From the NCBI GenBank assembly GCA_964643955.1, contig CAZXUO010000001.1, positions 171,828 to 235,827 on the forward strand: a stretch of 64,000 bases of DNA, given 5' to 3'. The translations under genes were made by a program, and so were the position numbers. This document shows, piece after piece, positions 29,677-44,846 of the stretch. This DNA comes from an uncultured Candidatus Saccharibacteria bacterium. GTDB taxonomy: Bacteria > Patescibacteriota > Minisyncoccia > Phycocordibacterales > UBA918. The notes beneath the pieces were generated by a model. The model did not search any database. It was not told where the DNA came from and was given only the letters and a program-made list of their open reading frames with translations. The stretch's first letter is position 1; every line of letters begins with the position of its first letter.

Positions 29677-29709
29677 AGACTACTTCGTTGCAGTGGTACC
29701 ATTGTCCGG

Positions 29710-31302: not shown

Positions 31303-31316
31303 CACTTGTTTTTTGT

Positions 31317-32537
31317 TTACCGCAACTCAACATCTTCCTCGATCTCTTCGTCATCACGTGACGGCATAAAAAGCAAATGTGAAATAAAGAACCAAATGAC
31401 AGAAAGAATTGTGGCAATCAACATCGGGAGGAAAAGACAATCGTACCAGAAGAAATATGAGAGTACCGCAACGACTGCATACCAACCCATATGCCAGTAG
31501 TGGTACGCCGACGGATTCCATGGGCGCATATCATGGTATCGCTCGCGGAAATCGAAGAAGAACCAGCCGATCATAAAGAGAAGTGCGAGGAGCCACCAGT
31601 CGCACAAGAGTAATAACTTATTGAGGAGCACCAGCACCACAACCATGAGTGCGGCAAAAATCGAGTTGCGTGAAAATGCACGGCGAGAGCCATACACTTC
31701 GTTTCGCAATCGCAGATCACGGATGAGAACCCAGCCATAAAAGATACCGAGCACGATGAGAAGTATCGGCATCACGCAGGCACAGTCAACCGAGATAATG
31801 TCAGAAACTCCTGCGACGATTCCGTCTGGCAACGTCGTGCTCCCTGTGCCCGTTGCTTCACCGAGCACCTGCGGCTCACCCGCACCTTCTGCTCCTGCTA
31901 CGCTTCCTGAAGGGACAAGTGGAACTGCAAACGGAAATCCGCCGCCAGTACCGAAGTCTTCAGGAGTTCCCGTGTCACCATCCCCGTCACCATCGCCGTC
32001 CCCGCTTGAGCGCGAACCACCGCCCCCTGTACTACCCCCTCCGTCACCATCCCCATCTCCGTCGCCATCACCACCCGAAGTTTCGCCATCGTCACATTCA
32101 AAATTCCCACCTGCAAACCCTATACAAAGATCAAACGAGAGCGATGCATACTGGTATTCATTTCCCGATTCAGGGAAGAATGTCATGCGATAGGTATAGA
32201 CCGTCGATGCGCCGTTTGAAAGTGTACTGAGCCCTACTTTTCCTGCTGTATCGAAATCGACAAATGATCCCGTGAAAAAATCTCCATTGTTGATGATGAC
32301 TCCCATTGCGTCGCCGAGTCCGTCGTCGTCAACCACATTGATAAGTTCGGTATATACACTCTTATCTTCACCGCTATTATTGGTGACCGTCACCGTCTTT
32401 GTGATGGTATCGCCCGGAAGAAAATTAGACTCACCGAAAAGCGGTACGGTCTCGAACTGCACCTCAAGTGGCGCGGCCTGCACACTGCCCGCAAAAAAGA
32501 AGAGTGAGACTGCGCAGATTGTAAGAAAATATTTCAT
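31317..32537 (-). CDS. Secreted and membrane-anchored protein: signal peptide, beta-rich domain, (GD)n linkers, an EPQVLGE motif and a C-terminal multi-TM domain
   Basis: GDGDGDGDGDGGG and GDGDGDGDGDTG low-complexity linkers. At least 5 C-terminal TM helices. Confidence 0.4.
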   Translation of the reverse strand: MKYFLTICAVSLFFFAGSVQAAPLEVQFETVPLFGESNFLPGDTITKTVTVTNNSGEDKSVYTELINVVDDDGLGDAMGVIINNGDFFTGSFVDFDTAGKVGLSTLSNGASTVYTYRMTFFPESGNEYQYASLSFDLCIGFAGGNFECDDGETSGGDGDGDGDGDGGGSTGGGGSRSSGDGDGDGDGDTGTPEDFGTGGGFPFAVPLVPSGSVAGAEGAGEPQVLGEATGTGSTTLPDGIVAGVSDIISVDCACVMPILLIVLGIFYGWVLIRDLRLRNEVYGSRRAFSRNSIFAALMVVVLVLLNKLLLLCDWWLLALLFMIGWFFFDFRERYHDMRPWNPSAYHYWHMGWYAVVAVLSYFFWYDCLFLPMLIATILSVIWFFISHLLFMPSRDDEEIEEDVELR

Positions 32538-32548
32538 AAATAAAATAA

Positions 32549-34633
32549 TTATTCGACCGGTGGCTCTGGCTCCGTCGTAGGTTCAGGCTCTGCGGGCGTC
32601 TCCTCTTCAGCAGGCGCTTCTTCGACTTCTTCTACAACATCTTCAACGACCATAAGATCATCTTCTGGCTGGACCTCGACAATTGGTTCTTCCTGCTCTT
32701 GCTCAACGGGTTCTACCACTGGCTCCGGCGGAAGAATATCTTCTTCACGCACGTCTCCAAGATCAGTAGAGCCGCCGGTCGATTGCTCATCGGTAGGTGG
32801 TGTCGCTTCAAGCACCGGCGCTGTCGACGATGCAGTTGAAGATGCCGTCGGCGTGACCGGTGCAATCTCCGGCGTAATCACTTCCTCTTCTGCAATGAGA
32901 AGCGCTTCAATTTCAGCATCAGTCATTTCAGGAAGTTCCTCAAGTCCTTCTGATATAGGAGCGACCTCAACACCTTCCATAGTGAAGCGAAGAATCTCGA
33001 TATCGTCTGATCCCGGATTGGTACCTGGATTTGGTGTCGCATTGAAAATCCAATCAGAAGCCGCGTCAGTGTCCCAGCCTTTCACCACGCGCGCGATCGA
33101 CTTGCCATCGAGTCCCGTGATGCCGACCGAAGGATTAAGCGCGACGGTATCGGTACCATAGCTTACTTGATCGACGACGACATCAGCGCCATCGCGGAGA
33201 ATCACGCGATCACCACCATCAGCGAGCCCATTGCCGAGCGATACGCCGAGCGCGATTTTAACCGCTGAAGCTGGGATGTCAGTCCAGTGGAGCGCAAATG
33301 TACTCGAGGCATTCGTGACGACCGCAAATCCATATGCAGGGATCGGTGTCGTAAGAAGCGGAATCATGTCGCAGCTCGTATTGTCACAAATATCCCATCC
33401 CGAAATATCAATCGGTGCAGCCGTCGGATTGTAAAGCTCTACCCACTCATTGTTTGTATCAGAGCCATGACCCGAATCTACATCATAGAAAACCTCGTTC
33501 ACGACCATGTGCGTGGTTGGTGCGACCGGCGCATCGATCGCCACCTCGAGGACTGGTCGTACATCGCTCTGACTTTGGTGCTCTGAGCTGCGGAACTTTC
33601 CCGAGCGGCTTCCGCTCTCAGGAAGCGCGTCGACATCCGCAAGCTTCCATCCATAGTTTGAGAAACTTCCATTTACAAAACCTGCGACATCACTCGTGAC
33701 ATCCCAGGACATCCACTTCGCATTCCCATCACCCGTACTCTCAGTGTCGGTCGGCGCAACCACCGCAGGCTTGCTATTCCACGTCACACTTCCCTCGCTC
33801 CACACTGCTGTCGCACGCGAGACTGCGTAATTGGTATTTGGCGTTGGTGCGGTGTAAAGATACGCCTTTAATTGTGCATCAGTGATGATCGAGCCGGGAG
33901 GAAGTGCGAAGTTGAATCCAACGAGCGCCTCAGAGTCCTTCGCACCAGACTGTCGACGAAGCTCAAGCTGCTGACTCGTGCCATTGTTGGTATTTGGCTG
34001 CTGCTCGTTTACATCAGTATCCATAATCGCTGCGATGTCAATCGTCGAAGTGCTTGTGTCGGACATGTTTTCCCACTGCGCTGTGGTGACGGCAAACGAT
34101 TCAGTCTCGACATCGTGATATGCCTTTCCTGAAGCAAAGCCAAACTGCCAACCATCAAACGTAATATCAAAATCGCAGGTCAGATTTGCGTATGAGCTGT
34201 CGACCGGCGGAAGCGAGGTGATGAAATCCCATGAGTTACCATCACCGGGGAAACTTGAGGTGCTGTGTGAGAAGCTTGCGAGCGGCCCCGTGTACACCGT
34301 GCTCGTTGCACGTTTTGCTTCGAGATTGAGTACGCCACAGAGTGGGCTCGTCGTCGCTGAAGTGAAAACGCGATATTCAAATGGCAATGAGTCGGTCGTG
34401 GTCGAAAGCGAGACAGGAAATGCCGGTGCACTGTTTTCAGGTGTGAGTCCGATGAATTCAGTCGTTGTGGTTGCGAGCATAAAATCAAGCTCTGCAGCAT
34501 CAAAAGAATTCTCTTCAGAAATTTCCGTATCGCTATAGTACGCCTGTGTGACACCCACTTGTGCGCAGCCGACCGTCGCAATGAGCGCGAATGCGAGTAC
34601 TTTTATTCCAAATTTATTTCTGAAGTTATGCAT
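32549..34633 (-). CDS. Large secreted protein (694 aa) with a SipW-cognate (TasA/camelysin-type) N-terminal signal
   Basis: The N-terminus ...GVTQAYYSDTEISEENSFDAAELDF matches the A[FY][FY]SDTE..(x)N.F.AG.LDL signature of SipW substrates. The C-terminal tail is Glu/Pro/Thr-rich. Confidence 0.55.
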   Translation of the reverse strand: MHNFRNKFGIKVLAFALIATVGCAQVGVTQAYYSDTEISEENSFDAAELDFMLATTTTEFIGLTPENSAPAFPVSLSTTTDSLPFEYRVFTSATTSPLCGVLNLEAKRATSTVYTGPLASFSHSTSSFPGDGNSWDFITSLPPVDSSYANLTCDFDITFDGWQFGFASGKAYHDVETESFAVTTAQWENMSDTSTSTIDIAAIMDTDVNEQQPNTNNGTSQQLELRRQSGAKDSEALVGFNFALPPGSIITDAQLKAYLYTAPTPNTNYAVSRATAVWSEGSVTWNSKPAVVAPTDTESTGDGNAKWMSWDVTSDVAGFVNGSFSNYGWKLADVDALPESGSRSGKFRSSEHQSQSDVRPVLEVAIDAPVAPTTHMVVNEVFYDVDSGHGSDTNNEWVELYNPTAAPIDISGWDICDNTSCDMIPLLTTPIPAYGFAVVTNASSTFALHWTDIPASAVKIALGVSLGNGLADGGDRVILRDGADVVVDQVSYGTDTVALNPSVGITGLDGKSIARVVKGWDTDAASDWIFNATPNPGTNPGSDDIEILRFTMEGVEVAPISEGLEELPEMTDAEIEALLIAEEEVITPEIAPVTPTASSTASSTAPVLEATPPTDEQSTGGSTDLGDVREEDILPPEPVVEPVEQEQEEPIVEVQPEDDLMVVEDVVEEVEEAPAEEETPAEPEPTTEPEPPVE

Positions 34634-35186
34634 GCGTATCAGTCTTTTCTGGTTCCTCTTTTGCTTCTTTTTTTGTTCGCAACTTTCTCAATTCATTCCA
34701 GAGTGCGACTCCCTCATCAAAAAGGACAAATCCTGCGGGAATGCCGATGAGTAATACGAAACCGAGCGGCTTCTTAGCAAAATCGAGGATGAATCCCATG
34801 TACGGAATCGAGAAGAAGACTTCTCCAAGTACCTGAGTACGCGGTATCGGCCGCGGATCAGGCGCGTTGTTGGCATCGCCTTTCGTGAGATACGAGATGC
34901 CACGACCGATCTCATCTACCTCGACGATGCGGTGCGTCGTCGGCACCTGATCGCCACGTTCAAAGTAGAAGGTGATGATATCACCCACTTGATAATCACC
35001 CGTTGGTCGCATCACAATGAGCGAGCCCGTCTTGATCTCAGGCTCCATCGAGCCGGACTGCACAATCTTTACTTCGAAGTTGCCTGGTACGGGCACGAGC
35101 GGCATGAGCAGCAGAAGACCAAGGAGAACCACTCCCACGATGAGTCCGTAATAGAGAATTGCGAAGAACTTTCCGATCATAAGCAT
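34626..35186 (-). CDS. sipW: Signal peptidase I, ER/archaeal type (SipW)
   Basis: SGSMEP box, a His-containing TTHRIV box (no Lys general base) and a TKGDANNAPD box. This differs from the P-type lepB at 5921. Confidence 0.75.
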   Translation of the reverse strand: MLMIGKFFAILYYGLIVGVVLLGLLLLMPLVPVPGNFEVKIVQSGSMEPEIKTGSLIVMRPTGDYQVGDIITFYFERGDQVPTTHRIVEVDEIGRGISYLTKGDANNAPDPRPIPRTQVLGEVFFSIPYMGFILDFAKKPLGFVLLIGIPAGFVLFDEGVALWNELRKLRTKKEAKEEPEKTDTHA

Positions 35187-35270
35187 ATCGAGGCTTAAAG
35201 ACTTAAGGCCTCATCCCTCCCCGCGATACTTCGCAGGGAGGGTGAGCCATCAAGACTTTAAAGAATTTCT

Positions 35271-37145
35271 TTAAAAGCCGAGAACGTCTCCGTTCAACAT
35301 GACGTCATCTACTTCAACAACCTGAGCTTTGTTGTACGTACCCATTCCTACTGATATACCGACAACTTTTGCTCCTGGATAAGCCGCAGCAAGCTGCTGA
35401 AGTGTGAAGTTGGTTGCGTATGCGCCACCTCCACCACTCACTCCGGCAGCTGTGGTAACTCCACTTGCCCACCACTTACCTTTTGTTTGATCGGCGCTCC
35501 ATGTCTGCTCAACACCAGTCATGATTGATGGTGGGTTGAGGTCATTGTGAGCGAAGATGTTGTAGTACGGTTCAAAGGTGATGTCCTTTGTAGTCGTACC
35601 CACACCATCTCCGTCGAGGTCAACAATGAGGCGAAGGCTCGCGTTTCCGTTTATAGGATCAAACGCTGAAACTTGCTTTGAGTCATACCTCACCATCGTG
35701 ACATCCTCTACATCGATATCTACACCGTAGTTGGTATAGCGAACGCGTGAGTTTACATCATCTGCAGTAACGAGCGTGATGAATCCATCCTCAACAACCA
35801 CATCTCCACCAGCTGATGATGTCTCAATCCACTCGTCCTCTTCTTCACCACCACCATTGTATTCTGCGATCACATCGGCGCATGAGAAGTCTGCGTTGTT
35901 GCGCTGCTGTACTGCGTATGCAGTGATGTCCGCAATGAGTGAGTCTGACTGTGATGCGTTGTCTACCGTAGAGCCATCACATTCGATCTCTCCATCATTG
36001 TTTGTCTGTGTACCTGCGCACCATGCGAGACCGAGGTATGCAGTTGTTGATGCAGTAAGACTGATCTCTTCTGGATTCCATGCATCTGCAAATGATGCGC
36101 CAGGACCAGCAATCACCGTCTCATCTCCTGCATCATATTCTCCATCTCCATTATCAACCCACGCGAAGAATTCAAGGACGCTGCCGAGCTCTCCAGTTGT
36201 AAGTCCATCTTCATCATCCTGTGATTCTGGCTCCGTCTGTGTATTGTCATCTTCCTCAATGTTATATGGGAAGACACACGCAAACGCATCATTGTCGAAC
36301 ACATGGAGTGAAATCACGTTTGTACCCCAGTCACCCGGCTTAATGTCGTTGAAGTTGAAGAACTTGTCTCCATCCGCAAGATCTTTTTCAGCCCAAAGGC
36401 GGCACATATTTTGGAAGTCTGTATCTGCAGCACATTCCTGTTCTGGACGTTCAATATTCAATTTGAACATCAAGCCTGCAGGGTTTGCTTCTGGTGTGCC
36501 GCCCTGTACTGCTTTGTTGCGAACGGTGATTTCAAGCACGTTCTCGCCAGTCTGTACCTCGGCCTGAAGTGCAGCTTGGAATGGCGCAGTATTTACAAGG
36601 TCGCCATAATTAAATTCAGTACCAAGATTGTTCACAATTTCTGTACCGTTGAGGACAATCTTGTAACCATTGTCAGCCGCAAGCGCAAGCGTAAGCGAGA
36701 TACCCGAAACGCCGCCATTCCACTGAAACTTGTTTTGGAATGTGTACTCTGCGTCTGTTGTGGTATCTGCCTGAAGCACTGGATTGGTTACCCAAATCCA
36801 CTGAGCAGGTGCAGCAGAAGCCTCTGGCTCCCATGCAGGGTGAACAAAACTCAACTCGACTGCATCCGTAGGAATTGGTCCTGCGTATGCACCATTGTCT
36901 GCAACAACGTCAGTACTTGCAGCAGACGAAAATACCGTCACGCTACATGTCTCACAGTCTGCGCCATTATACGTTTGCATTGCATGGTCTACCTTAAGAT
37001 CAATCGATCCAGCGGTAAACACGTTTCCTGCTGATGTCTCTGTATCACTGAAGAATGCGCCCGTTCCTGAGATCACAATCGCTGCGATTGCAGTGATGAG
37101 TCCGAGGCTCAAGAGCACTCGCTTTGTGTTAATAACTCCTGTCAT
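35271..37145 (-). CDS. Large secreted protein (624 aa) with a SipW-cognate signal (TasA-like)
   Basis: N-terminus ISGTGAFFSDTETSAGNVFTAGSIDLKVD is a near-canonical match to the SipW-cognate class. Confidence 0.6.
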   Translation of the reverse strand: MTGVINTKRVLLSLGLITAIAAIVISGTGAFFSDTETSAGNVFTAGSIDLKVDHAMQTYNGADCETCSVTVFSSAASTDVVADNGAYAGPIPTDAVELSFVHPAWEPEASAAPAQWIWVTNPVLQADTTTDAEYTFQNKFQWNGGVSGISLTLALAADNGYKIVLNGTEIVNNLGTEFNYGDLVNTAPFQAALQAEVQTGENVLEITVRNKAVQGGTPEANPAGLMFKLNIERPEQECAADTDFQNMCRLWAEKDLADGDKFFNFNDIKPGDWGTNVISLHVFDNDAFACVFPYNIEEDDNTQTEPESQDDEDGLTTGELGSVLEFFAWVDNGDGEYDAGDETVIAGPGASFADAWNPEEISLTASTTAYLGLAWCAGTQTNNDGEIECDGSTVDNASQSDSLIADITAYAVQQRNNADFSCADVIAEYNGGGEEEDEWIETSSAGGDVVVEDGFITLVTADDVNSRVRYTNYGVDIDVEDVTMVRYDSKQVSAFDPINGNASLRLIVDLDGDGVGTTTKDITFEPYYNIFAHNDLNPPSIMTGVEQTWSADQTKGKWWASGVTTAAGVSGGGGAYATNFTLQQLAAAYPGAKVVGISVGMGTYNKAQVVEVDDVMLNGDVLGF

Positions 37146-37214
37146 AACAGTTTGTAAAATTAATCTTTAAATAAATTTGATAAACCCACGCGCAGCTCTG
37201 GTGCTGAGCTGGTC

Positions 37215-37262
37215 TGGGTATAGAAAAAACGCCCCGCGCACGAATTACGTGCGAGAGGCGTT
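37215..37262. terminator. Long imperfect hairpin terminator (aacgccccgcgcacg aatta cgtgcgagaggcgtt) with A- and T-runs, embedded in a longer imperfect palindrome
   Basis: Located downstream of the sortase gene and upstream of the 624-aa gene. Confidence 0.55.
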
Positions 37263-37389
37263 TTTCCATACATCCAAACCAGACCAGCAGTACTTCAGAG
37301 TCATTATCATAGCTGTGGTAATCGCATACTAGCGCACCGCAACCGAATGTACATATTGACGTGTGGACTAGTTTGTATCGTGCCGCTCT

Positions 37390-38022
37390 TTATTTATCCT
37401 TGAGCGCCGCGTAAACAACCAGATTATGGCTGTATCGCTGCACGCCACGATCAAACGTACCCGTGCAGGTCACGAGGCGCAAACCCGCATGGTCGATGTC
37501 TCCATAGACTAATTGTGTCGGAAAATTTTCCTGCGCATATCGCTCCAGCGCAGTGACTTCAAATACTGCAATACTGCCGTCCTCTCGCACAATCTCAATC
37601 TCATCGCCGAGCGAGAGTTGTCCGAGTGAATAAAAGACTGCAGGACCCGCAACTGAGTCCACGTGCCCGAGCACAACCGCAGGACCAAGCTCACCGGGCG
37701 TCGGACCATGTTTGTACCATCCGACTTCCTCATAGCCTTTTGGCACTTCCACTTCACCATTTTCTGAGAGGCCGAGCGGGTCGGTAAATGATGCATCGAG
37801 ATCAATCGCAGGAATACGCAATTGAACTGGGAGAGACTCCTCGAGGTACGCGGCACTCGAAGATGCATATGGATCACCCATCTGTTCAGGTGAATACGCT
37901 GGCGCAGGGAGAAAAAGGTACATCACCAATGCGCCTATTACGAGGCCACATACGGCATACGCCGCCACGGTACCGTGGCGGCGTATGCATGATCCGAGTC
38001 GTTGTCTTGGATCAATACTCAT
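37390..38022 (-). CDS. Sortase (class E/F-like transpeptidase)
   Basis: An N-terminal TM anchor, a VVLGHVD His motif and an LVTCTG catalytic Cys motif (TLxTC). Confidence 0.7.
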   Translation of the reverse strand: MSIDPRQRLGSCIRRHGTVAAYAVCGLVIGALVMYLFLPAPAYSPEQMGDPYASSSAAYLEESLPVQLRIPAIDLDASFTDPLGLSENGEVEVPKGYEEVGWYKHGPTPGELGPAVVLGHVDSVAGPAVFYSLGQLSLGDEIEIVREDGSIAVFEVTALERYAQENFPTQLVYGDIDHAGLRLVTCTGTFDRGVQRYSHNLVVYAALKDK

Positions 38023-38027
38023 AAGTC

Positions 38028-39815
38028 CTAGTTGGCGAATCGTCGGAGTGCGAAGCCTGCGCCAAGAATTGCGAGGAGTGCGAAGACTGATACAAGTGAT
38101 GTATCACCTGAAGTGCCTCCTGCACCCGCATTTGGTGCGCCAATCGGCATAATTTCCGTCTGCACGCCGAGAACCTGCGGTACTGGCTCGTCATCGTCAG
38201 AGCTTGAAGACGAGCGACGTGAACCTCCACCCCCACCTCCTCCGCCGCCACCTGAGTCATTGAGACCAAAGTGTGCAACGAGGTCAATATTTCCGCTCAT
38301 AACCACCGTACATGGCGTCGTATTGCCGATGCAGGTACCTGAGCCCGTTGTCCAGCTATTATCGAAGTTTGAGCCTTCGTTTGGAGTCACCACAAGCGTA
38401 ACTTCGGTTCCTTCTGGGTATGTTTCAGAGCAGTCATTCTCTTCATTTTCGCCCGTAAGACAGAAGATTGTCGTCGTCGCCACTTCGGTCTCATTACCCT
38501 CGATTTTTCCGTGACCATCGCCCGTTGTCGTAATCGTGAGTGTATAGCGACCATCACCGTCTCCATCACCGTCTCCATCTCCGTCGCCACCACCGTTTGT
38601 TGGCACCTCAGTACAGTCTACTTCGGTATTGCCGGTAAGTGTCATCTTGTAGAGGAGACCTGCTGGATTTGATTCAGTTGTCCCCCCTTCAAGCGCCCAG
38701 TTTTTCACTTCGATTGAGAGCGTATTTTCGCCCATAATTATTTCGCCACCAAATCCAGTGTAATTGGTCGATGTTCCGAAGTTATCTTCAACGCCACTCG
38801 ATGCAATCTCTGTACCATTAAGCTTCACCGAGTATGAGTTGTCAGCTGCTATATCGAGCACAGAGGCTGTCACGGGACCGTTCCAATCGAAGGTTTTCGT
38901 AAATGTCTGAATCGTCTCGTTGACCGGATCGACAACGGGATCATCACCCCAGATCCATGATGCACCATCGATTACTGCGTCCCATGCATCGTGGATGAAT
39001 GAAACAAGTACTGCCGCAGCACCATCTTCAGTATTTGTCGTGTCACTCACGATCGTGACCGAACACATCTGTGGTTCTGGATCGGTGTCATCAGGCTGTG
39101 CAATGAGACAAAGTTCGACATGATCAAGCAATGTACCCGATGCATTTGATACACCCTGATCCTCAAACGCGATCTCAGTTGACAAGCCGTCAGCAACAAA
39201 CGTCTCCTCATAGAATGACCAATCTGTATCAGAATTACCGGTACCGTCTGCTGTTATTGAGTTTTTCTCAATACCATCTATAAATACACCGAGAATGTTT
39301 TCACTCTCATCCGTTCCGGGTAGTGGAGAAAAAAAGAATTTCAATGCATACGTACCACCCAAAATCGTAGGGACGTCTTGCATAATTCGAACCGATGGCT
39401 GCTCATTCGGACCGTCATCAATACCGGGACCACTCCAATCTGAATCAAGTTCAGTGTAGTAATCACCATGATATGCGCTCCACCAACCTGTATTCCCATT
39501 GTCGATCTCAATATTTGCGGTCTCCGGTGCGCCATCAACATCATGCACCCATCCTGCCTCCCACTCGACACCGTTAGTACCTGATGGTATTACCTCCCAC
39601 TCCTCAATCAAAATATCATCGTCATCAAATGTCTGATCTTCAAAAGAACCGTTTTTGATAAGATTCTCTCCATACACGAGACACTGTGTGCCTTCGGTCT
39701 CGTGCTGCACGCCGGCGTAAACCGGATTAGAGAAAGTACCAGAAAAGACCATCGCAGATACCAGTAAAAATACTCCTACCTTCCGGACTCCAGAGGAAAT
39801 CATAACCGTATTCAT
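38028..39815 (-). CDS. Cell-surface protein (595 aa) carrying a (GD)n linker, a poly-Gly/Ser tract, a PQVLG motif, and a C-terminal hydrophobic anchor followed by a basic RRFAN tail
   Basis: The C-terminal architecture (hydrophobic segment followed by RR) resembles a sortase sorting signal, but no canonical LPXTG is present. Confidence 0.5.
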   Translation of the reverse strand: MNTVMISSGVRKVGVFLLVSAMVFSGTFSNPVYAGVQHETEGTQCLVYGENLIKNGSFEDQTFDDDDILIEEWEVIPSGTNGVEWEAGWVHDVDGAPETANIEIDNGNTGWWSAYHGDYYTELDSDWSGPGIDDGPNEQPSVRIMQDVPTILGGTYALKFFFSPLPGTDESENILGVFIDGIEKNSITADGTGNSDTDWSFYEETFVADGLSTEIAFEDQGVSNASGTLLDHVELCLIAQPDDTDPEPQMCSVTIVSDTTNTEDGAAAVLVSFIHDAWDAVIDGASWIWGDDPVVDPVNETIQTFTKTFDWNGPVTASVLDIAADNSYSVKLNGTEIASSGVEDNFGTSTNYTGFGGEIIMGENTLSIEVKNWALEGGTTESNPAGLLYKMTLTGNTEVDCTEVPTNGGGDGDGDGDGDGDGRYTLTITTTGDGHGKIEGNETEVATTTIFCLTGENEENDCSETYPEGTEVTLVVTPNEGSNFDNSWTTGSGTCIGNTTPCTVVMSGNIDLVAHFGLNDSGGGGGGGGGGSRRSSSSSDDDEPVPQVLGVQTEIMPIGAPNAGAGGTSGDTSLVSVFALLAILGAGFALRRFAN

Positions 39816-39891
39816 ACAGAAATATTATAAGTGGTTAACCCAAACGTGACGCCGTTCTAGCATATTTTGGGTTAACCCGCAACACCAAGGA

Positions 39892-41292
39892 TCAGATGTC
39901 GAAAAGACGCTCGACCAAACCGCGATTTGAAAGCGACACGAGGTATACAGTATCAGGATCAACAAAAATACCCGCTAGACCCATGTATTGCCAGCGATAC
40001 GAATCTTGGATGGTACGACGCATGGTAATTGAACTACGGGTAAGGTCGTAGACAATCAGGCCAGTTGGCGCCGTCGCTTGTACGACCGTTGAGCCACGTA
40101 CAACTGAGTCTGATTCCCGCACAATAGAGGGAAGATCAGTACGCGCTACGATGGTGCTTCCCGAATTATTTATTACATACCCGAAACCACCACCTGCTGC
40201 GTATGATCCCTGCACAAAAAATGCATCGATACCAGGGACGTACGCGACGTTATAAGTGTAATACTTCACTCCCGAAGTAATCTTTGTTGGAGCTTTTGTA
40301 AGCATACCGGTTGCAGGATCAAGTGCTGCAACATAGAGATCAACTGCAGTCGACCCAGGGACGAATCGTTGCCAGACAAGTAGGGCAGTTTGAGGTGATC
40401 CTGCAACAACAGGCCACCAATCACGTTCGTTACCAACAGAAACATTCACGGTGCGCTCAAGAGAACCATCGTTCTTTATGATTGCCGCATAGACGTCGTC
40501 TCCTGAACCGAGCCCATCGACACCTCCACCATCTACCCATCCTTCAGAGAAAAATACGACAAATTTATTACCGACTGCAGAGACGTGCCCCGAATGACCT
40601 CCCTCCATTACTGTTTGCGGGTATGATTTACGTACTCCAAGTTCCGAATCAAAAACCGCGTATCGTTGAGAAACTTCATACGAAGTATCCCACCCATCTT
40701 CGGTTGTAACGAGAATATTCCCATTTTGTGCAATGGCTGCGCTTGCTGGCTCCTGTGCTTCAGGCTTTGAGATGAGTGTTTGGGGAATAATTACTGGAGC
40801 ACGAGGATCAATAATGGACGCGTATATATCGTGAGTCCAATTCCAATCCTGTTTCGGATCTGCTCCTTTCGGAGGATTCCCCGAACTCGACCAAATGAGA
40901 TAGTGAGTTCCATCTGATCGAGGAAGAAAAGAAATTCCATGCTGAAACTCTCGAAGATCATCAGATGAAGGAGCGTCTTTTGCATTGTTGTAATAAGAAC
41001 TATTGTTACTGAGCTTTACCGAGATATGTGAGCCTGCAGCATCGGGCATGACATTAGGCGCAGCTTCTTCGGTATCTGATGTTTCCGTCATAATAACTTC
41101 CGTAGGATTCTCTACATTTTCCTCGACCTCAGTTTCAATCTCGCTCTCTGGAAGAATCGGTACAACCACAGACAAATCTTCTGCCGTATCTACATACTCC
41201 TCTCCCGGTGCATTCAATCTCTCATAATATGCAAAGGCACCCACCAAAACAGTGGATGCCAATACAATGCCGAGTGCTGCTTTTCGTACCAT
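39892..41292 (-). CDS. Hypothetical secreted or membrane-anchored protein (466 aa)
   Basis: An N-terminal TM segment with a Gly/Ser/Thr-rich body. No family recognised. Confidence 0.4.
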   Translation of the reverse strand: MVRKAALGIVLASTVLVGAFAYYERLNAPGEEYVDTAEDLSVVVPILPESEIETEVEENVENPTEVIMTETSDTEEAAPNVMPDAAGSHISVKLSNNSSYYNNAKDAPSSDDLREFQHGISFLPRSDGTHYLIWSSSGNPPKGADPKQDWNWTHDIYASIIDPRAPVIIPQTLISKPEAQEPASAAIAQNGNILVTTEDGWDTSYEVSQRYAVFDSELGVRKSYPQTVMEGGHSGHVSAVGNKFVVFFSEGWVDGGGVDGLGSGDDVYAAIIKNDGSLERTVNVSVGNERDWWPVVAGSPQTALLVWQRFVPGSTAVDLYVAALDPATGMLTKAPTKITSGVKYYTYNVAYVPGIDAFFVQGSYAAGGGFGYVINNSGSTIVARTDLPSIVRESDSVVRGSTVVQATAPTGLIVYDLTRSSITMRRTIQDSYRWQYMGLAGIFVDPDTVYLVSLSNRGLVERLFDI

Positions 41293-41339
41293 GAGTACTT
41301 ACGATACCGCACCTGTAGGTATCGTCAACGGAGTAGGTC

Positions 41340-43286
41340 CTATTCAACAAACATTTCCACACCATCAATATACGCATGCCCAACTGAACCTGCAGTGAGG
41401 TACACCTGGAGGGAAGCCTGAGTGACTTCTGCAGATGTCGGAGTATACACGTACGATTCATCAATGGTGAAACTGGTGCCTGTCTGACCGAGCCATTTTC
41501 CAGAAATCCAGTTGTCGTCCATATCGTATTCATCCATGTAGAATCCGAGTTCTCCTGACGTAAGATCGTTTGCGTTCGTGACGAAACGGACACCGTAGCG
41601 CGTGTTGAAGTCAACATCAATCTTCTTGCCGAAGACATGCGTCGCAGCATCATTACCTGTCATTTTTAATGCTGCATCCGGAGTTGGATATGCACCATTG
41701 CGTCCCATATCTATTTCAGCAAAATCAGCGTCACTCACCATCCATGAATCAGAGAGTCCATCCTCAAAACTTCCGTTCTCTACCATATTTGACCCAAACT
41801 CAAGCATCTCCTTCACTGTCTTTGCCTTAATACCGCGTGCTTCAAAAGCCTCCATGAGTGTCTCGAGCTTCTCAGTCGTCCATACATACTCGTATAGATT
41901 CTCCTCAGGAACAGTCACCGCAAATTCATGGAAGACAAGGACGAGCCAATGATCATTCTCAACGGCCGCATCAATGTGTACTTCAATCTCTTCAACTGTC
42001 GTACTGGTATGTACAGGGACAACATGGAGAAGATACTTATTGAACGGCCATTTGTTGAGGGAAACATGATTGAACGTTCGGTGGGAGTTGAAATTCTTTA
42101 TGACTTCAGCGAGCACATTTATGTCATATGCCCCATATGGTGAAGCGAAATTTTCTCCCAAAAATCCGTGATCTTCAAGATCCTCAATACTTTGCTCAAG
42201 TTCCTGGGTCACCTCTTCGGGCGATAGTGTCGGCAATTCCGCATGGGTGACGGTATGTGCACCCATTTCGACGTCAATCATGTGGAGACTGTCGAGGTCT
42301 GCCCATGTCATATGCCCTTCGGTACCGATTTGGCCTGTTGGAACATAAAGTGTCGCCTTCTGCTTGAACTGCTGAAGAACCGGAGCTGCGTACAGATATT
42401 GCGAAATGACCGCATCGTCGAACGTCAATGTGACGCCACCCTTTACAAACGGATTCTCAACAGGATCTACGTCAGGCGTATTGTCGAACGTAAGTGTAAC
42501 AATAGACGTCGTTGCCACATTAAGCGCATGATCGATTGCTGAAGCGTAAATAGTGTACTCACCGTCCGCAAAGAAAGCGGTATCAAGCGAAACGCTTGAT
42601 GGAGACGTGGTAGCAGCATCCCCAAAAGTAACTCCACCGACGAAGAATTGAATCTCTTTAAGGCCGCTCGTCACCTGACCAAGTACCACTGGATCAGTCG
42701 AAGACGCTTCGAGCGAAATAACTCCCGAGACCGTAGCACTTACCGAAGGAGCGATAAGTGTAATGATAGGTGTGGTCGTATCAGCATCATCAGTAGGGAC
42801 AGGCTCTTCTTCACCGCCAGAGTCAGTTGTTGTGCCGGTATTAACCTCTTCATTTGAACTTGAGCCACCACCTCCACCCGAACGTCGGCGCGGCTTCTTT
42901 TCCCCGGTCGTATCATCAGAAGTATCACCCGCATCCGCTACTGTCGTTGTTCCTGCAACCGTAGGAACGGGAGAATTCGCAAAAAAATCAAAAGGTTCTT
43001 CAAAAAGTGGACCATTCAATAGCGTAGACGAAACGTCAGACGGATTTGAAGACTCTTGTTCTTCTTCCACATCTTCATCGTCTGTTTCTTCTGAAGCTGG
43101 ATCTACATCGTTAACATCTGAAAATTCAACTGAAGCAGTCTGATCATCCGACCTCTCGAACATACCTGCATTAAGAAACAGGAAACCTACAAAAAACAGT
43201 ATCGCGACAGAGAGTGCTCCTGCCGTATACCACAACTTCTTATTATCTTCTTTTTTAAAAATATTATTCATAGCTTCTTTGTACAC
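41340..43286 (-). CDS. Polysaccharide deacetylase (CE4, NodB homology; IcaB/PgaB-like) with an N-terminal TM segment and a C-terminal beta-sandwich domain
   Basis: NodB motifs TLTFDDA, HTVTHAEL and ASPYG. The acidic linker near the N-terminus is rich in Asp and Thr. Confidence 0.7.
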   Translation of the reverse strand: MYKEAMNNIFKKEDNKKLWYTAGALSVAILFFVGFLFLNAGMFERSDDQTASVEFSDVNDVDPASEETDDEDVEEEQESSNPSDVSSTLLNGPLFEEPFDFFANSPVPTVAGTTTVADAGDTSDDTTGEKKPRRRSGGGGGSSSNEEVNTGTTTDSGGEEEPVPTDDADTTTPIITLIAPSVSATVSGVISLEASSTDPVVLGQVTSGLKEIQFFVGGVTFGDAATTSPSSVSLDTAFFADGEYTIYASAIDHALNVATTSIVTLTFDNTPDVDPVENPFVKGGVTLTFDDAVISQYLYAAPVLQQFKQKATLYVPTGQIGTEGHMTWADLDSLHMIDVEMGAHTVTHAELPTLSPEEVTQELEQSIEDLEDHGFLGENFASPYGAYDINVLAEVIKNFNSHRTFNHVSLNKWPFNKYLLHVVPVHTSTTVEEIEVHIDAAVENDHWLVLVFHEFAVTVPEENLYEYVWTTEKLETLMEAFEARGIKAKTVKEMLEFGSNMVENGSFEDGLSDSWMVSDADFAEIDMGRNGAYPTPDAALKMTGNDAATHVFGKKIDVDFNTRYGVRFVTNANDLTSGELGFYMDEYDMDDNWISGKWLGQTGTSFTIDESYVYTPTSAEVTQASLQVYLTAGSVGHAYIDGVEMFVE

Positions 43287-43295
43287 TTGGTAATG

Positions 43296-43538
43296 TTATT
43301 GATTTATCTGTAAACCCAGGTCGTGTATGCTCACCTGACGCAACGCACCCTTATATTTCCTGAGATTTATAAAAAATCTGATGAGCATGAGTACTGAGAG
43401 CCCAAACGAGATTATTGTAAAGATTAGAAATATCCGTGCCAAAATGATATTGCCGGAAGAGTTTAGCAAAAAAGCCGTCGCGACCGCGAGCGGCATCGAT
43501 GACAAAGTTGAGATCACTGTCCCTCCGTGCAGATTCAT
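43296..43538 (-). CDS. Small two-TM membrane protein, positioned like IcaD/PgaD
   Basis: 80 aa with two hydrophobic helices, lying between the processive GT2 and the CE4 deacetylase. Confidence 0.35.
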   Translation of the reverse strand: MNLHGGTVISTLSSMPLAVATAFLLNSSGNIILARIFLIFTIISFGLSVLMLIRFFINLRKYKGALRQVSIHDLGLQINQ

Positions 43539-43607
43539 AGTCGTACCGAATTACTACACGACCTGTGTATCATGCTTTCTTGGCTTTGGCAAGTTTTAGA
43601 AAGTATT

Positions 43608-44846
43608 TTACCCACTTCGTGTGCCCCATCCTTTTGTATATCCCACTTTAAGGAACATCTTCCTAAGACCACGCATAAATGACGTATCCGGGATTGATAC
43701 GCTCACTACATTAAACAACCAAAATAGATATGACCCCAGTAACACAAGCGTTAATAAATTCGCATATATAAATTCCGGCACGAGTGATATTCGAAGCAAC
43801 CAATCTATACGATCCTTATCAGCATAAAACTTCATGAGCCAAAGCTGGAAACTATACCAAAGAATAACTTGAGCGAGTGAGAGCGCAATAATACATTGAA
43901 ATATCACATGTGACATCACCCCTCTTTCTGCAAACATATACGACACGATAATAAGAAAGAGTGTCCCCACAAACATGACATGCCCGATAATATCCTGGAT
44001 GATACCCGGTGCGAACTTCATCTCCGACACAACGGTTACACCTCCATAGACCCATCGTGTGCGTTGTCTCCATAGATGGGAAAATCTTGCAGGCACTTCA
44101 GTCCATGCGTATGCATGTGGCGCAAGGCGGACATGCCAACCGAGAGACTTAATACGAGAAGTAATCTCATAATCCTCGATAAGGTGCCCTTCTTTAAAGC
44201 CTCCGACCGCATAGAGCACGTCCGCACGAAATGCCGTAAGCATACCGTGCATAACGAGCGGACCATAAAAAAATCCTTCGTCGGCAAGGCGTGTTGCGTT
44301 AAAACCAAGGTATTCAAGCCCCTGAAGGCGGGTCAAGAAATTAGCATTCTTATTGAGCACGCGACATTGCGAACATGCTGCGCCGATACGCTCATCGGAA
44401 AGCACGCCATGTACGAGTGCCTTCACTGTGTTTCTATCGACAACGACATCATCATCGAGTGTAAGAATAATATCGGGACGCACGCCGGCATCTCGCATAG
44501 AAAAAAGTGCATAATTTATTGCACCTGCCTTCATCTTATTAACAGGAGTCCGAAGCAATGTCACCCGATCCGACATCTTTGCTATTGAAGCAAAATAAGC
44601 GTACTCATGTTCATACGACTCTGGAGTACAGTCATCAACAACGTAAATGCACAATTCGTCGTTCCAACGAAGAAGGTCAGAAACGAGCTTTACAGTGAGT
44701 GGACCGGGCTTAAATGAAGGAATGATGGCGACAACAGCACAAGGATGTGATGTTGCTGACTGCACCTTGTTTTGAAATCGGTGAGGAACAACAAAACTCG
44801 CAATATGCTGCATTGACGAAATTGAGTTTTGTGAAAAATCACCCAT
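43608..44846 (-). CDS. Processive GT2 polysaccharide synthase (IcaA/PgaC/NodC-like)
   Basis: VVDDC, LDDDVVV, EDYEIT and RQRTRW (QxxRW-type) motifs, plus C-terminal TM helices. Confidence 0.7.
   Translation of the reverse strand: MGDFSQNSISSMQHIASFVVPHRFQNKVQSATSHPCAVVAIIPSFKPGPLTVKLVSDLLRWNDELCIYVVDDCTPESYEHEYAYFASIAKMSDRVTLLRTPVNKMKAGAINYALFSMRDAGVRPDIILTLDDDVVVDRNTVKALVHGVLSDERIGAACSQCRVLNKNANFLTRLQGLEYLGFNATRLADEGFFYGPLVMHGMLTAFRADVLYAVGGFKEGHLIEDYEITSRIKSLGWHVRLAPHAYAWTEVPARFSHLWRQRTRWVYGGVTVVSEMKFAPGIIQDIIGHVMFVGTLFLIIVSYMFAERGVMSHVIFQCIIALSLAQVILWYSFQLWLMKFYADKDRIDWLLRISLVPEFIYANLLTLVLLGSYLFWLFNVVSVSIPDTSFMRGLRKMFLKVGYTKGWGTRSG

What the first reader, a model, noticed from the sequence alone, without database searches (positions are those of the whole stretch)
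37390..39815. Sortase paired with a surface protein that lacks LPXTG; a PQVLG motif is shared with a second cluster protein
The sortase (catalytic motif LVTCTG) lies directly downstream of a 595-aa protein. That protein ends ...DDDEPVPQVLGVQTEIMPIGAPNAGAGG..., then a hydrophobic segment, then RRFAN, which is a sorting-signal architecture without a canonical LPXTG or LAXTG. The 406-aa protein at 31317-32537 has the same order: a (GD)n linker, then EPQVLGEATG, then TM segments. So PQVLG, or a nearby motif, may be a non-canonical recognition element. Alternatively it marks a conserved domain boundary.
Basis: inference. Interest (0 to 1): 0.55.

Follow-up and report, generated by a model that had tools for sequence, protein, structure and literature searches.

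The report
CPR class F sortase sorting signal

Summary
The sequences are as described. 37390-38022(-) is a class F sortase (NCBIfam 180.7 bits, cutoff 166). The 595-aa protein 5 nt upstream has no LPXTG or LAXTG.

The tail is still a sorting signal. In 38 of 42 CPR loci and at least 21 of 27 actinobacterial loci, the gene just upstream of a class F sortase ends in PxG-[AG]-x-x-[T/A]-G-x-G-G, then a hydrophobic stretch, then basic residues. Background is 2 of 385 ORFs in the CPR loci.

The actinobacterial tails pass NCBIfam's GVDTG_CTERM model. The window's MPIGAPNAGAGG scores 21 bits against a cutoff of 29. APNAG is therefore the probable LPXTG equivalent.

PQVLG belongs to a CPR-only VLG box. 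Its G lies exactly 13 residues before the T/A position in 29 of the 38 CPR tails. The actinobacterial tails never have it. It can occur twice in one tail, and it also occurs in proteins with no sorting signal, for example upstream of a PG_binding_1 domain.

The 406-aa protein does not match the signal profile (-1.9 bits). It belongs to a separate conserved TasA-like/SipW/LTD module. The shared pentamer alone is not significant (15% of shuffles).

Verdict: a new variant of a known kind. The role of the VLG box is unresolved.

The parts
37390..38022 (-). Class F sortase, 210 aa. It has an N-terminal membrane anchor (residues 19-37), a catalytic His120 in GHVD, a catalytic Cys186 in LVTCTG, and a probable catalytic Arg196.
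   Evidence: NCBIfam NF033748 scores 180.7 bits against a cutoff of 166, and Pfam PF04203 gives E = 7e-21. The AlphaFold2 model has pLDDT 87.9, and Foldseek matches sortases C, A and E at probability 1.00. His120 and Cys186 are invariant in 61/61 sequences.
38028..39815 (-). Predicted sortase substrate, 595 aa. Domain order: Sec signal peptide, a choice-of-anchor-C-like domain (residues 51-234), a rhamnosidase-N-like beta domain (about 250-400), a (GD)n linker, an InlB B-repeat-like domain (461-517), a Gly/Ser linker, and the C-terminal sorting signal.
   Evidence: TIGR04362 scores 40.8 bits, which is below its cutoff. PF18998 scores 31.4 bits, above its cutoff.
38031..38180 (-). The complete CPR-type class F sorting signal, residues 546-595: PQVLGVQTEIMPIGAPNAGAGGTSGDTS-LVSVFALLAILGAGFAL-RRFAN.
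   Evidence: It scores 63.1 bits against a profile of 27 sortase-adjacent CPR tails built without the window sequence. It is the only hit in the window.
38166..38180 (-). The VLG box, here PQVLG (residues 546-550). It is a CPR-specific upstream element of the signal, and its function is unknown.
   Evidence: V and L are conserved in at least 90% of sequences and G in 100% of the alignment of sortase-adjacent tails. The spacing to the T/A position is 13. It is absent from the actinobacterial tails.
38115..38147 (-). Core motif P-I-G-A-P-N-A-G-A-G-G (residues 557-567). APNAG (38124-38138) is the probable LPXTG equivalent, and the inferred cleavage is between A563 and G564.
   Evidence: P, G, G and G are invariant. 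The consensus is PxGAPN[T/A]GAGG. NCBIfam NF058571 GVDTG_CTERM aligns from MPIG onwards at 21.2 bits, E = 2.6e-4, below its cutoff of 29. The cleavage position is inferred by analogy with LPXT|G.
38031..38096 (-). Hydrophobic segment LVSVFALLAILGAGFAL (residues 574-590) followed by the basic tail RRFAN (residues 591-595).
   Evidence: The Kyte-Doolittle 19-residue window scores 2.19.
31317..32537 (-). The 406-aa protein: signal peptide, a conserved N-terminal beta domain, a (GD)n linker, PQVLG (31860-31874), and a four-segment membrane domain. It is not a recognisable sortase substrate. It is the last gene of the TasA-like/SipW/LTD module.
   Evidence: It scores -1.9 bits against the signal profile. 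Synteny without an adjacent sortase is seen in L084 and L085.
32549..37145 (-). The neighbouring module, which is context rather than part of the sortase system. It comprises a TasA/camelysin-like 624-aa protein with a SipW-type signal (35271-37145), a SipW-type signal peptidase (34626-35186), and a 694-aa CBM96/DNRLRE + LTD protein (32549-34633).
   Evidence: TIGR04088 scores 21.7 against a cutoff of 19, TIGR02228 scores 109.8 against 51.85, and PF24517 and PF00932 both hit. The same gene order is found in L023, L081, L084 and, more loosely (fragmentary signal-peptidase ORFs, an extra Laminin_G_3 gene), L085.

Best explanation
This is a two-gene surface-anchoring unit of a Patescibacteria (CPR) bacterium. 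A membrane-anchored class F sortase is co-transcribed with its dedicated substrate, a 595-aa multidomain protein that probably binds carbohydrate or acts as an adhesin.

Proposed sequence of events:
1. The substrate is exported by Sec.
2. It is held in the membrane by its C-terminal hydrophobic segment and RRFAN stop-transfer tail.
3. It presents the motif P-I-G-A-P-N-A-G-A-G-G to the sortase.
4. The sortase cysteine (Cys186) cleaves within APNA|G, which is the position equivalent to LPXT|G.
5. The acyl-enzyme is resolved by an amine of the peptidoglycan precursor, which links the protein covalently to the wall.

The signal is the CPR version of the class F signal. In Actinobacteria that signal reads P-x-G-G-x-x-T-G-x-G-G, and NCBIfam models it as GVDTG_CTERM.

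CPR tails add a VLG box (here PQVLG), whose G lies exactly 13 residues before the T/A position. I think the box is an accessory, separable module at the junction between the flexible linker and the wall-attachment element. I do not think it is the scissile site.

What is shown: the family assignment, the fold, the invariant His and Cys, the conservation of both motifs, their spacing, and the gene adjacency.

What is inferred: the cleavage position, the acceptor, and the role of the VLG box.
For: - Sortase identity: NF033748 scores 180.7 bits, above its cutoff of 166. The fold is confirmed. His120 and Cys186 are present in 61/61 sequences.
- Adjacency: the core motif is in the last 60 aa of 38/42 CPR and 21/27 actinobacterial sortase-upstream ORFs. 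Background is 2/385 and 18/772. Most of those background hits are real neighbours that my adjacency rule missed, or tandem paralogues.
- Modularity: the passenger proteins range from 114 to 1820 aa with unrelated domains. In a search of 1.84 billion representatives, every one of the 150 listed hits (of 333 at E <= 1e-3) matches at or within about 25 residues of the C-terminus of a protein of 45-1809 aa.
- Core consensus: A-P-N-T-G, with P in 131/144, T in 120/144 (A in 24) and G in 144/144. It lies about 5-10 residues before the hydrophobic stretch.
- Link to a curated model: actinobacterial tails upstream of class F sortases pass the NF058571 cutoff at 29.2-41.3 bits. The window tail scores 21.2-21.4 bits over the same region.
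- Close relative: in L081, whose sortase is 85% identical, the substrate is 827 aa with a different N-terminal part but keeps ...PIPQVLGAQTEIMPIGAPNAGAGG....
- T-to-A variants: these cluster among the sortases nearest the window's (Mann-Whitney p = 0.0096, not corrected for phylogeny).
Against: - There is no biochemical evidence for any CPR class F sortase.
- The window tail falls below the curated GVDTG_CTERM cutoff.
- It has Ala where the canonical sortase motif has the scissile Thr.
- The VLG box is as strongly conserved as the core (V and L at least 90%, G 100%). A direct role for it in recognition cannot be excluded.
- The third catalytic residue (Arg) could not be placed unambiguously. 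R196 occupies its alignment column in only 31/61 sequences, probably because of a one-residue alignment shift in the actinobacterial sequences.
- Many CPR tails have unusually short or weak hydrophobic segments. This is atypical for sortase signals.
Confidence: 0.78

Rival explanations
1. The VLG box (PQVLG) is itself an essential recognition element for CPR class F sortases. In this reading the signal is bipartite. The box acts either as an exosite bound by the enzyme or as a second processing site.
For: - V, L and G are conserved as strongly as the core motif in tails chosen only for sortase adjacency.
- The spacing is exactly 13 residues in 29 of 38 core-bearing tails, and in 138/138 profile-selected tails (partly circular, because VLG was in the profile).
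- CPR sortases differ from actinobacterial ones at a few conserved positions: L68, F79, V100, Q164 versus K, and H199 versus D.
Against: - VLG is absent from all 21 actinobacterial class F tails.
- It lies about 23 residues from the hydrophobic segment.
- It often occurs in two or three tandem copies within one tail (42 of 144).
- It also occurs in proteins without any sorting signal. One example lies 20 residues before a PG_binding_1 domain. Others lie in the linker of CAP-domain proteins.
- Some sortase-adjacent tails replace L with A, K or D (IVAG, EVKG, KVDG).
- No covariation with the sortase sequence was found within CPR.
Confidence: 0.2
2. PQVLG is a generic CPR linker-boundary motif with no mechanistic link to the sortase. 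It could be a structural cap, a protease site or a glycosylation site at the end of low-complexity stalks. It would then sit next to the signal only because the signal follows a stalk.
For: - The box follows acidic or Gly/Ser-rich linkers in proteins with and without sorting signals.
- It occurs in the 406-aa family in some members (P0123, P0124, the L023 member) but not in P0122, the nearest diverged (46% identity) homologue.
Against: - An incidental linker end would not hold an exact 13-residue register to the core.
- Occurrences of the box outside signals are only about twice the rough chance expectation in the loci sampled (my estimate).
Confidence: 0.3
3. The 595-aa protein is simply a C-terminally membrane-anchored protein. 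The sortase acts on other, unlinked substrates or has a non-anchoring role.
For: - In Actinoplanes, deleting all four class F sortases gave no phenotype, and the physiological role of the class is described as unknown (PMC13251363).
- The scissile Thr is replaced by Ala here.
Against: - The 5-nt gene spacing and the cross-phylum adjacency statistics argue for a dedicated enzyme-substrate pair.
- The invariant P/G/G/G core upstream of the hydrophobic segment has no explanation if the tail is only an anchor.
Confidence: 0.07

Closest known systems
GVDTG sorting domain (NCBIfam NF058571, GVDTG_CTERM), found next to class F sortases (NF033748) in Actinomycetota
   Same: - The architecture matches: P-x-G-[AG]-x-x-T-G-x-G-G, then a spacer, a hydrophobic helix and Arg/Lys residues.
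- The gene order matches: the substrate lies immediately upstream of a class F sortase.
- The window tail aligns to the model over 42 of 44 positions.
   Different: - The window tail is below the cutoff (21 bits against 29).
- The core reads G-A-P-N-A-G instead of G-G-[AV]-[DE]-T-G. It has Pro at position 2, as in LPXTG, Asn at the X position, and Ala in place of Thr.
- CPR tails add the VLG box 13 residues upstream, which no actinobacterial tail has.
- CPR passengers are large multidomain proteins, whereas the actinobacterial ones are mostly 160-300 aa.
- I know the NCBIfam model only by its name and scores. The link to class F sortases is my inference from adjacency.
LPXTG cell-wall anchor with class A sortase (TIGR01167 / PF00746)
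   Same: The signal is tripartite, with x-P-x-T-G just before a hydrophobic segment and a basic tail. The enzyme has the same fold and a Cys/His active site.
   Different: - Ala replaces Leu at position 1, and Ala replaces Thr at position 4 in the window protein.
- Invariant flanking Gly residues are present (PxG...GxGG).
- Neither the LPXTG nor the Gram_pos_anchor model hits the window tail, even at E <= 10.
LAXTG signal with class E sortase (Streptomyces, Corynebacterium)
   Same: It is a lineage-specific one-residue variant of LPXTG handled by a dedicated sortase class (PMC8225981).
   Different: - The sortase class differs: the class E model scores only 20.4 bits.
- The variant position differs (position 2 in LAXTG, positions 1 and 4 here).
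- LAXTG signals have no VLG box.
Propionibacterium (Cutibacterium) acnes SrtF, the only biochemically studied 'class F' sortase
   Same: It carries the same class label, and it is reported to work as a housekeeping anchoring enzyme (reviews read).
   Different: It is reported to recognise canonical LPXTG. I could not read the original paper or test whether that enzyme belongs to NF033748.
tapA-sipW-tasA (Bacillus) and sipW-bsaA (Clostridium perfringens) fibre operons
   Same: The adjacent module encodes a SipW-type signal peptidase and proteins with SipW-dependent, TasA/camelysin-like signal peptides. In C. perfringens a sortase gene also flanks sipW (PMC7395162).
   Different: - The proteins here are much larger (624 and 694 aa) and carry CBM96 and LTD domains.
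- The module includes the 406-aa membrane protein.
- In C. perfringens the flanking sortase was dispensable for fibre formation.

Membership tests
Class F sortase (NCBIfam NF033748) | Score above the curated cutoff of the family HMM | tested here: met
   180.7 bits against a cutoff of 166, covering 152 of 155 profile positions. Classes E, D and GN score 21 bits or less.
Class F sortase (NCBIfam NF033748) | Sortase beta-barrel fold | tested here: met
   The AlphaFold2 model has mean pLDDT 87.9. The top 50 Foldseek PDB hits are all sortases (classes C, A and E) at probability 1.00, E = 4e-9 to 2e-7.
Class F sortase (NCBIfam NF033748) | Catalytic His and Cys (TLxTC-type motif) | tested here: met
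   H120 (GHVD) and C186 (LVTCTG) are invariant in 61/61 aligned class F sortases.
Class F sortase (NCBIfam NF033748) | Catalytic Arg after the Cys strand | tested here: inconclusive
   The window protein has R196 (QRYSHN). That column holds Arg in 31/61 sequences. The actinobacterial sequences have Arg one column earlier (RSYxDN). No coordinates were available to check the geometry.
Class F sortase (NCBIfam NF033748) | Transpeptidase activity on a defined signal | not testable with these tools
   This needs an enzyme assay.
GVDTG sorting domain (NCBIfam NF058571) | Score above the curated cutoff (29 bits) | tested here: not met
   The window tail scores 21.2-21.4 bits, E about 2.5e-4. Typical CPR GAPNTG tails score 13.9-21.9 bits. 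Actinobacterial tails and one CPR GGADTG tail pass at 29.2-41.3 bits.
GVDTG sorting domain (NCBIfam NF058571) | Motif, then a hydrophobic segment, then a basic tail, at the extreme C-terminus | tested here: met
   PIGAPNAGAGG, a 6-residue spacer, a 17-residue hydrophobic segment, then RRFAN and the stop codon.
GVDTG sorting domain (NCBIfam NF058571) | Encoded next to a class F sortase | tested here: met
   There is a 5-nt gap on the same strand. The adjacency holds family-wide in 38/42 CPR and 21/27 actinobacterial loci. That this feature defines the family is my inference, not the curators' stated rule.
GVDTG sorting domain (NCBIfam NF058571) | Thr-Gly at the presumed scissile position | tested here: not met
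   The window has Ala-Gly (APNAG). Ala occupies this position in 24/144 CPR tails and in the closest relatives.
LPXTG cell-wall anchor (TIGR01167 / PF00746) | LPXTG motif and a match to the family HMM | tested here: not met
   No L[PA]x[TA]G is present in the protein. Neither TIGR01167 nor PF00746 hits the window tail at E <= 10.
CPR extended class F signal (profile built here) | Match to a profile of sortase-adjacent CPR tails built without the window sequence | tested here: met
   The 595-aa tail scores 63.1 bits, E = 1.5e-21. The 406-aa protein scores -1.9 bits.
CPR extended class F signal (profile built here) | VLG box whose G lies 13 residues before the T/A of the core | tested here: met
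   The window spacing is 13. The same spacing occurs in 29 of 38 adjacency-selected tails.
SipW / TasA-like secretion module (neighbouring genes) | Archaeal-type signal peptidase I together with a SipW-dependent signal peptide | tested here: met
   TIGR02228 scores 109.8 against 51.85 for 34626-35186. TIGR04088 scores 21.7 against 19 for 35271-37145. The equivalog model for Bacillus SipW itself is below its cutoff (122.3 against 190).

The most novel reading that the evidence does not exclude
CPR bacteria may use a bipartite wall-targeting code. In this reading the VLG box (P-x-[GP]-x-V-L-G-[EDA]-x-[TV]-S) is a functional module in its own right. It could be a wall-proximal element or an exosite. 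It would precede both covalent attachment (the class F signal) and non-covalent attachment (PG_binding_1), and CPR class F sortases would need it.

A related idea concerns the 406-aa family, the last gene of the TasA-like/SipW module. It may be the base or anchor of a fibre, and it appears to switch between two anchors:
- Sortase anchoring in L023, where its tail KVLGDQISQWPLGGLALGSGG is in register with the signal and scores 24 bits.
- A polytopic membrane anchor in this window.
Probability: 0.2. Interest if true: 0.6.

Novelty: new variant of a known kind. Interest (0 to 1): 0.4.

Why it matters
More than half of CPR genomes encode a sortase (PMC6744442). I found no paper in the searchable library that says what CPR sortases recognise. 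The physiological role of class F sortases is still described as unknown (PMC13251363).

The consensus signal is [PG]-x-V-L-G-[EDA]-[QAS]-[VT]-S-x-[VM]-P-x-G-A-P-N-[T/A]-G-A-G-G, followed by a hydrophobic segment and then basic residues. It gives a simple way to list the covalently wall-anchored surface proteins of these uncultured, mostly episymbiotic bacteria. At least 333 clusters at the 50% identity level carry it, attached to very diverse adhesin-like passenger domains. NCBI's current GVDTG model mostly scores them below its cutoff, so they are annotated as hypothetical proteins.

It also gives a concrete peptide for testing class F specificity in vitro. The enzymology itself is expected to be ordinary sortase chemistry.

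Tried and rejected
1. Word-indexed protein search with a profile of 28 tails. It returned only 6 short proteins. The index is unsuited to a 50-residue signal. The exhaustive representative search was used instead.
2. Covariation between sortase residues and the substrate motif.
   - The Q164/K and H199/D differences separate CPR from Actinobacteria.
   - Within CPR they do not track the X residue (N versus D) of the motif, so the differences are phylogenetic, not evidence of recognition.
   - The link between T-to-A tails and the sortases closest to the window's (p = 0.0096) is not corrected for phylogeny.
3. Promoter and terminator scan of 31000-44000. The counts equal the shuffle expectation, so nothing usable came of it.
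4. Treating the 406-aa protein as a second substrate.
   - It has no hit to the signal profile.
   - Its PQVLG is followed by a stretch that is out of register with the signal (10 residues before P-D-G instead of 6, then IVAG instead of APNTG).
   - P0122, its nearest diverged (46% identity) homologue, lacks the box.
   - Its gene module occurs without an adjacent sortase in L084 and L085.
5. Literature searches for 'class F sortase', sortase with CPR or Patescibacteria, GVDTG and APNTG. None describes this signal. The 'novel pilus system in CPR' preprint concerns unrelated Pam pili. The P. acnes SrtF paper is not held.
6. Sequence search of the PDB with the sortase. It gave only a weak class D hit (4d70, E = 1.7e-4). 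No class F structure appeared among the sequence or fold-search hits.
7. The exact 595-aa sequence is not in the protein collection, probably because a different start codon was called there. Context therefore came from the sortase and from the 406-aa protein.
Full report
**1. What is in the window**

On the minus strand, ORF 38028-39815 (595 aa) stops 5 nt before ORF 37390-38022 (210 aa).

The 210-aa protein is a class F sortase.
- NCBIfam NF033748 scores 180.7 bits against a curated cutoff of 166. Classes E, D and GN score 21 bits or less. Pfam Sortase gives E = 7e-21.
- An AlphaFold2 model built from 25 homologues has mean pLDDT 87.9. Its top 50 Foldseek hits in the PDB are all sortases of classes C, A and E, at probability 1.00.
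- His120 (GHVD) and Cys186 (LVTCTG) are invariant in 61 aligned family members.
- An N-terminal hydrophobic helix (residues 19-37) anchors it in the membrane.

The closest relatives, at 50-85% identity, come from Parcubacteria, Paceibacteria, Kaiserbacteria and other Patescibacteria MAGs. The window therefore comes from a CPR bacterium.

The 595-aa protein has these parts:
- a Sec-type signal peptide;
- a distant choice-of-anchor-C-like domain;
- a beta domain resembling the N-terminal domain of rhamnosidases, which it shares with the 624-aa neighbour;
- an InlB B-repeat-like domain;

It contains no L[PA]x[TA]G.

**2. The tail is a conserved, modular sorting signal, and its core is LPXTG-like**

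I fetched 80 genomic loci that encode relatives of the sortase. For each I read the C-terminus of the gene just upstream.

| Group | Upstream ORFs with G-[AGV]-x-x-[TAM]-G-x-[GS] in the last 60 aa | Other ORFs of at least 150 aa in the same loci |
|---|---|---|
| CPR | 38 of 42 | 2 of 385 |
| Actinobacteria | 21 of 27 | 18 of 772 |

- One of the two CPR background hits is a true neighbour that my adjacency rule missed.
- Most of the 18 actinobacterial background hits are also missed neighbours or tandem paralogues.

In the alignment of CPR tails, P18, G20, G25 and G27 of the core and G11 of VLG are invariant, and V9 and L10 are at least 90% conserved. The passenger proteins range from 114 to 1820 aa and carry different domains. 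That is the expected behaviour of a sorting signal.

I then searched 1.84 billion representative proteins exhaustively with a profile made of the window tail plus six short hits. It found 333 proteins at E <= 1e-3. Every one of the 150 listed hits matches at or within about 25 residues of the C-terminus of a protein of 45-1809 aa. Of the 145 listed hits other than the query-profile members, 144 read P-x-G-A-P-N-[T/A]-G-A-G-G:
- A at position 1 in 142;
- P in 131;
- N in 113;
- T in 120 and A in 24;
- G in all 144.

So the family motif is A-P-N-T-G, which is LPXTG with Leu replaced by Ala. It lies about 5-10 residues before the hydrophobic stretch. The window's APNAG is the T-to-A variant.
- The closest relative keeps this variant. 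In L081 the sortase is 85% identical and the substrate tail is PIPQVLGAQTEIMPIGAPNAGAGG.
- The variant is concentrated among the sortases most similar to the window's (not corrected for phylogeny).

**3. Relation to a curated model**

NCBIfam release 20 contains NF058571, 'GVDTG sorting domain'.
- Actinobacterial tails upstream of class F sortases pass its 29-bit cutoff at 29.2-41.3 bits.
- One CPR tail with GGADTG passes at 31.2 bits.
- Typical CPR GAPNTG tails score 13.9-21.9 bits.
- The window tail scores 21.2-21.4 bits (E about 2.5e-4), aligned from MPIG to the end.
- The LPXTG models do not hit the window tail.

The kind of signal is therefore already curated. The CPR form is a divergent variant that the model mostly misses. 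I know that model only by its name and scores. The link to class F sortases is my inference from adjacency.

**4. The PQVLG element**

In CPR tails a VLG box precedes the core. Its G lies exactly 13 residues before the T/A position.
- This holds in 29 of 38 tails selected only by sortase adjacency, and 34 of the 38 have a VLG somewhere upstream.
- It holds in 138 of 138 profile-selected tails. This count is partly circular, because VLG was in the profile.
- The window fits the pattern (PQVLG, spacing 13).

Four observations argue against VLG being the site of sortase action:
- No actinobacterial class F tail has it (0 of 21).
- It lies about 23 residues from the hydrophobic segment.
- It is often duplicated within one tail, as in ...GEVLGAATTTPTGMVLGEATSTMPVGAPNTGAGG... 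(two or three copies in 42 of 144 tails).
- The same box occurs in proteins without any sorting signal. PEGQVLGEATST lies 20 residues before a PG_binding_1 domain in L033. Other copies lie in the linker of CAP-domain proteins encoded downstream of the sortase in L021 and L023.

I conclude that the box is a separable, CPR-specific module at the junction between a flexible stalk and a wall-attachment element. Whether the sortase reads it remains open.

**5. The 406-aa protein**

- Its PQVLG is followed by a stretch that is out of register with the signal.
- A signal profile built without any window sequence scores it at -1.9 bits, against 63.1 bits for the 595-aa tail. In a six-frame search of the window, only the 595-aa protein is hit.
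- Its nearest diverged homologue (P0122, 46% identity) lacks the box. The near-identical orthologue in L081 keeps PQVLG.
- In 15% of shuffles of the two proteins, at least one non-trivial pentamer is shared.

The protein is the last gene of a conserved module. The module comprises a TasA/camelysin-like protein with a SipW-type signal, a SipW-type signal peptidase, a CBM96/LTD protein, and the 406-aa family.
- The module recurs next to the sortase in L081 and L023.
- It recurs without an adjacent sortase in L084 and, more loosely, in L085, where the signal-peptidase position holds two short unannotated ORFs and an extra Laminin_G_3 gene intervenes.
- In L023 the family member lies directly upstream of the sortase. 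It ends KVLGDQISQWPLGGLALGSGG, then a hydrophobic segment, then SRKRK. This is in exact register with the signal, with Leu at the T position, and scores 24 bits.

The family can therefore carry a class-F-type tail in other genomes. In this window the protein has instead a four-segment membrane domain.

**6. Mechanism and its status**

Shown:
- the enzyme family, its fold, and the invariant His and Cys;
- the signal architecture;
- cross-phylum adjacency of enzyme and substrate genes;
- conservation and spacing of both motifs.

Inferred by analogy with LPXTG sortases:
- cleavage between A563 and G564;
- a thioacyl intermediate on Cys186;
- transfer to a peptidoglycan amine.

Unknown:
- the role of the VLG box;
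- the acceptor;
- the function of the passenger domains.

The catalytic Arg is probably R196, but it could not be fixed from sequence alone.

**7. Literature**

- Reviews and a 2026 study state that the only characterised class F enzyme, from P. acnes, uses LPXTG. They also state that the physiological roles of the class are unknown.
- A CPR protein-family survey notes that a sortase family occurs in more than half of CPR genomes, but does not describe a signal.
- Full-text searches for GVDTG and APNTG found nothing relevant.

**8. Verdict**

The hedge 'or a nearby motif' is right. This is a divergent, CPR-specific variant of the class F (GVDTG-type) sorting signal. It has an LPXTG-like APN(T/A)G core plus a VLG box that I did not find documented in the libraries searched.

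Interest is moderate. The signal is useful for annotating CPR surface proteomes and for choosing a peptide to test class F specificity, but the mechanism is expected to be ordinary sortase chemistry.

Noticed in passing
window 31317-37145 (-); L023 1520-5830; L081 10856-16675; L084 1441-6618; L085 3479-9317: A four-gene module recurs in CPR genomes. It comprises a TasA/camelysin-like protein with a SipW-type signal, a SipW-type signal peptidase, a CBM96/LTD (or Laminin_G + LTD) protein that also has a SipW-type signal, and a member of the 406-aa membrane-protein family. It occurs with and without an adjacent class F sortase (L085 keeps the order only loosely, with fragmentary ORFs at the signal-peptidase position). 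It may encode a TasA-like fibre with its own anchor.
   Followed up: partly
L023 4769-5830: A 353-aa member of the 406-aa family lies directly upstream of the class F sortase. It ends KVLGDQISQWPLGGLALGSGG, then a TM segment, then SRKRK. This is in register with the CPR signal but has Leu at the T position (24 bits against the signal profile). The family therefore appears to switch between a sortase-type tail and a polytopic membrane anchor.
   Followed up: partly
window 35271-37145 (-) and 38028-39815 (-): The SipW-dependent 624-aa protein (residues about 65-233) and the sortase substrate (residues about 243-402) share a beta domain of about 150 aa. The domain resembles the N-terminal domain of alpha-L-rhamnosidases. 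The same passenger domain is thus delivered by two different surface-targeting routes.
   Followed up: partly
L033 6696-8630; L050 6696-11387; L021 6594-7775; L023 6479-7645: The VLG box (for example PEGQVLGEATST) also ends low-complexity linkers in proteins without a sorting signal. One copy lies 20 residues before a PG_binding_1 domain. Others lie in the linker of CAP-domain proteins encoded just downstream of the sortase in several CPR loci.
   Followed up: partly
L079 977-4981 (Amycolatopsis xylanica): At least five tandem paralogues of small (160-250 aa) proteins ending ...KVPxGAPQTGG... lie upstream of one class F sortase. This looks like a local expansion of GVDTG-type substrates.
   Followed up: no
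tails in L001, L005, L012, L013, L021, L024 and many hits: Many CPR class F tails have very short or weak hydrophobic segments of 10-12 residues (for example EFFHVVPVALLRRKA and LTLLQLLFVQRRRDVA). These are shorter than a normal membrane-spanning stop-transfer segment. The window's segment, at 17 residues, is normal.
   Followed up: no
L019 (PWWA01000121.1): A contig binned as 'Candidatus Woesearchaeota archaeon' carries a class F sortase and a substrate with the full CPR-type tail (LVLGEQVSVVPVGGAATGAGG). This is either a mis-binned CPR contig or a transfer into DPANN archaea.
   Followed up: no
window 27934-31302 (+) and 39892-43286 (-): The cluster sits within other cell-envelope genes. These include a 580-aa polytopic membrane protein with a C-terminal LysM-like end, a GH8 endoglucanase-like protein (PF01270, E = 2e-64), a 466-aa secreted protein with no family match, and a 648-aa polysaccharide deacetylase.
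   Followed up: no
sortase residues 164 and 199 (window 37426-37428 and 37531-37533): Two conserved positions near the presumed substrate-binding region separate CPR class F sortases (Q164, H199) from actinobacterial ones (K164, D199). No covariation with the substrate motif was found within CPR.
   Followed up: yes
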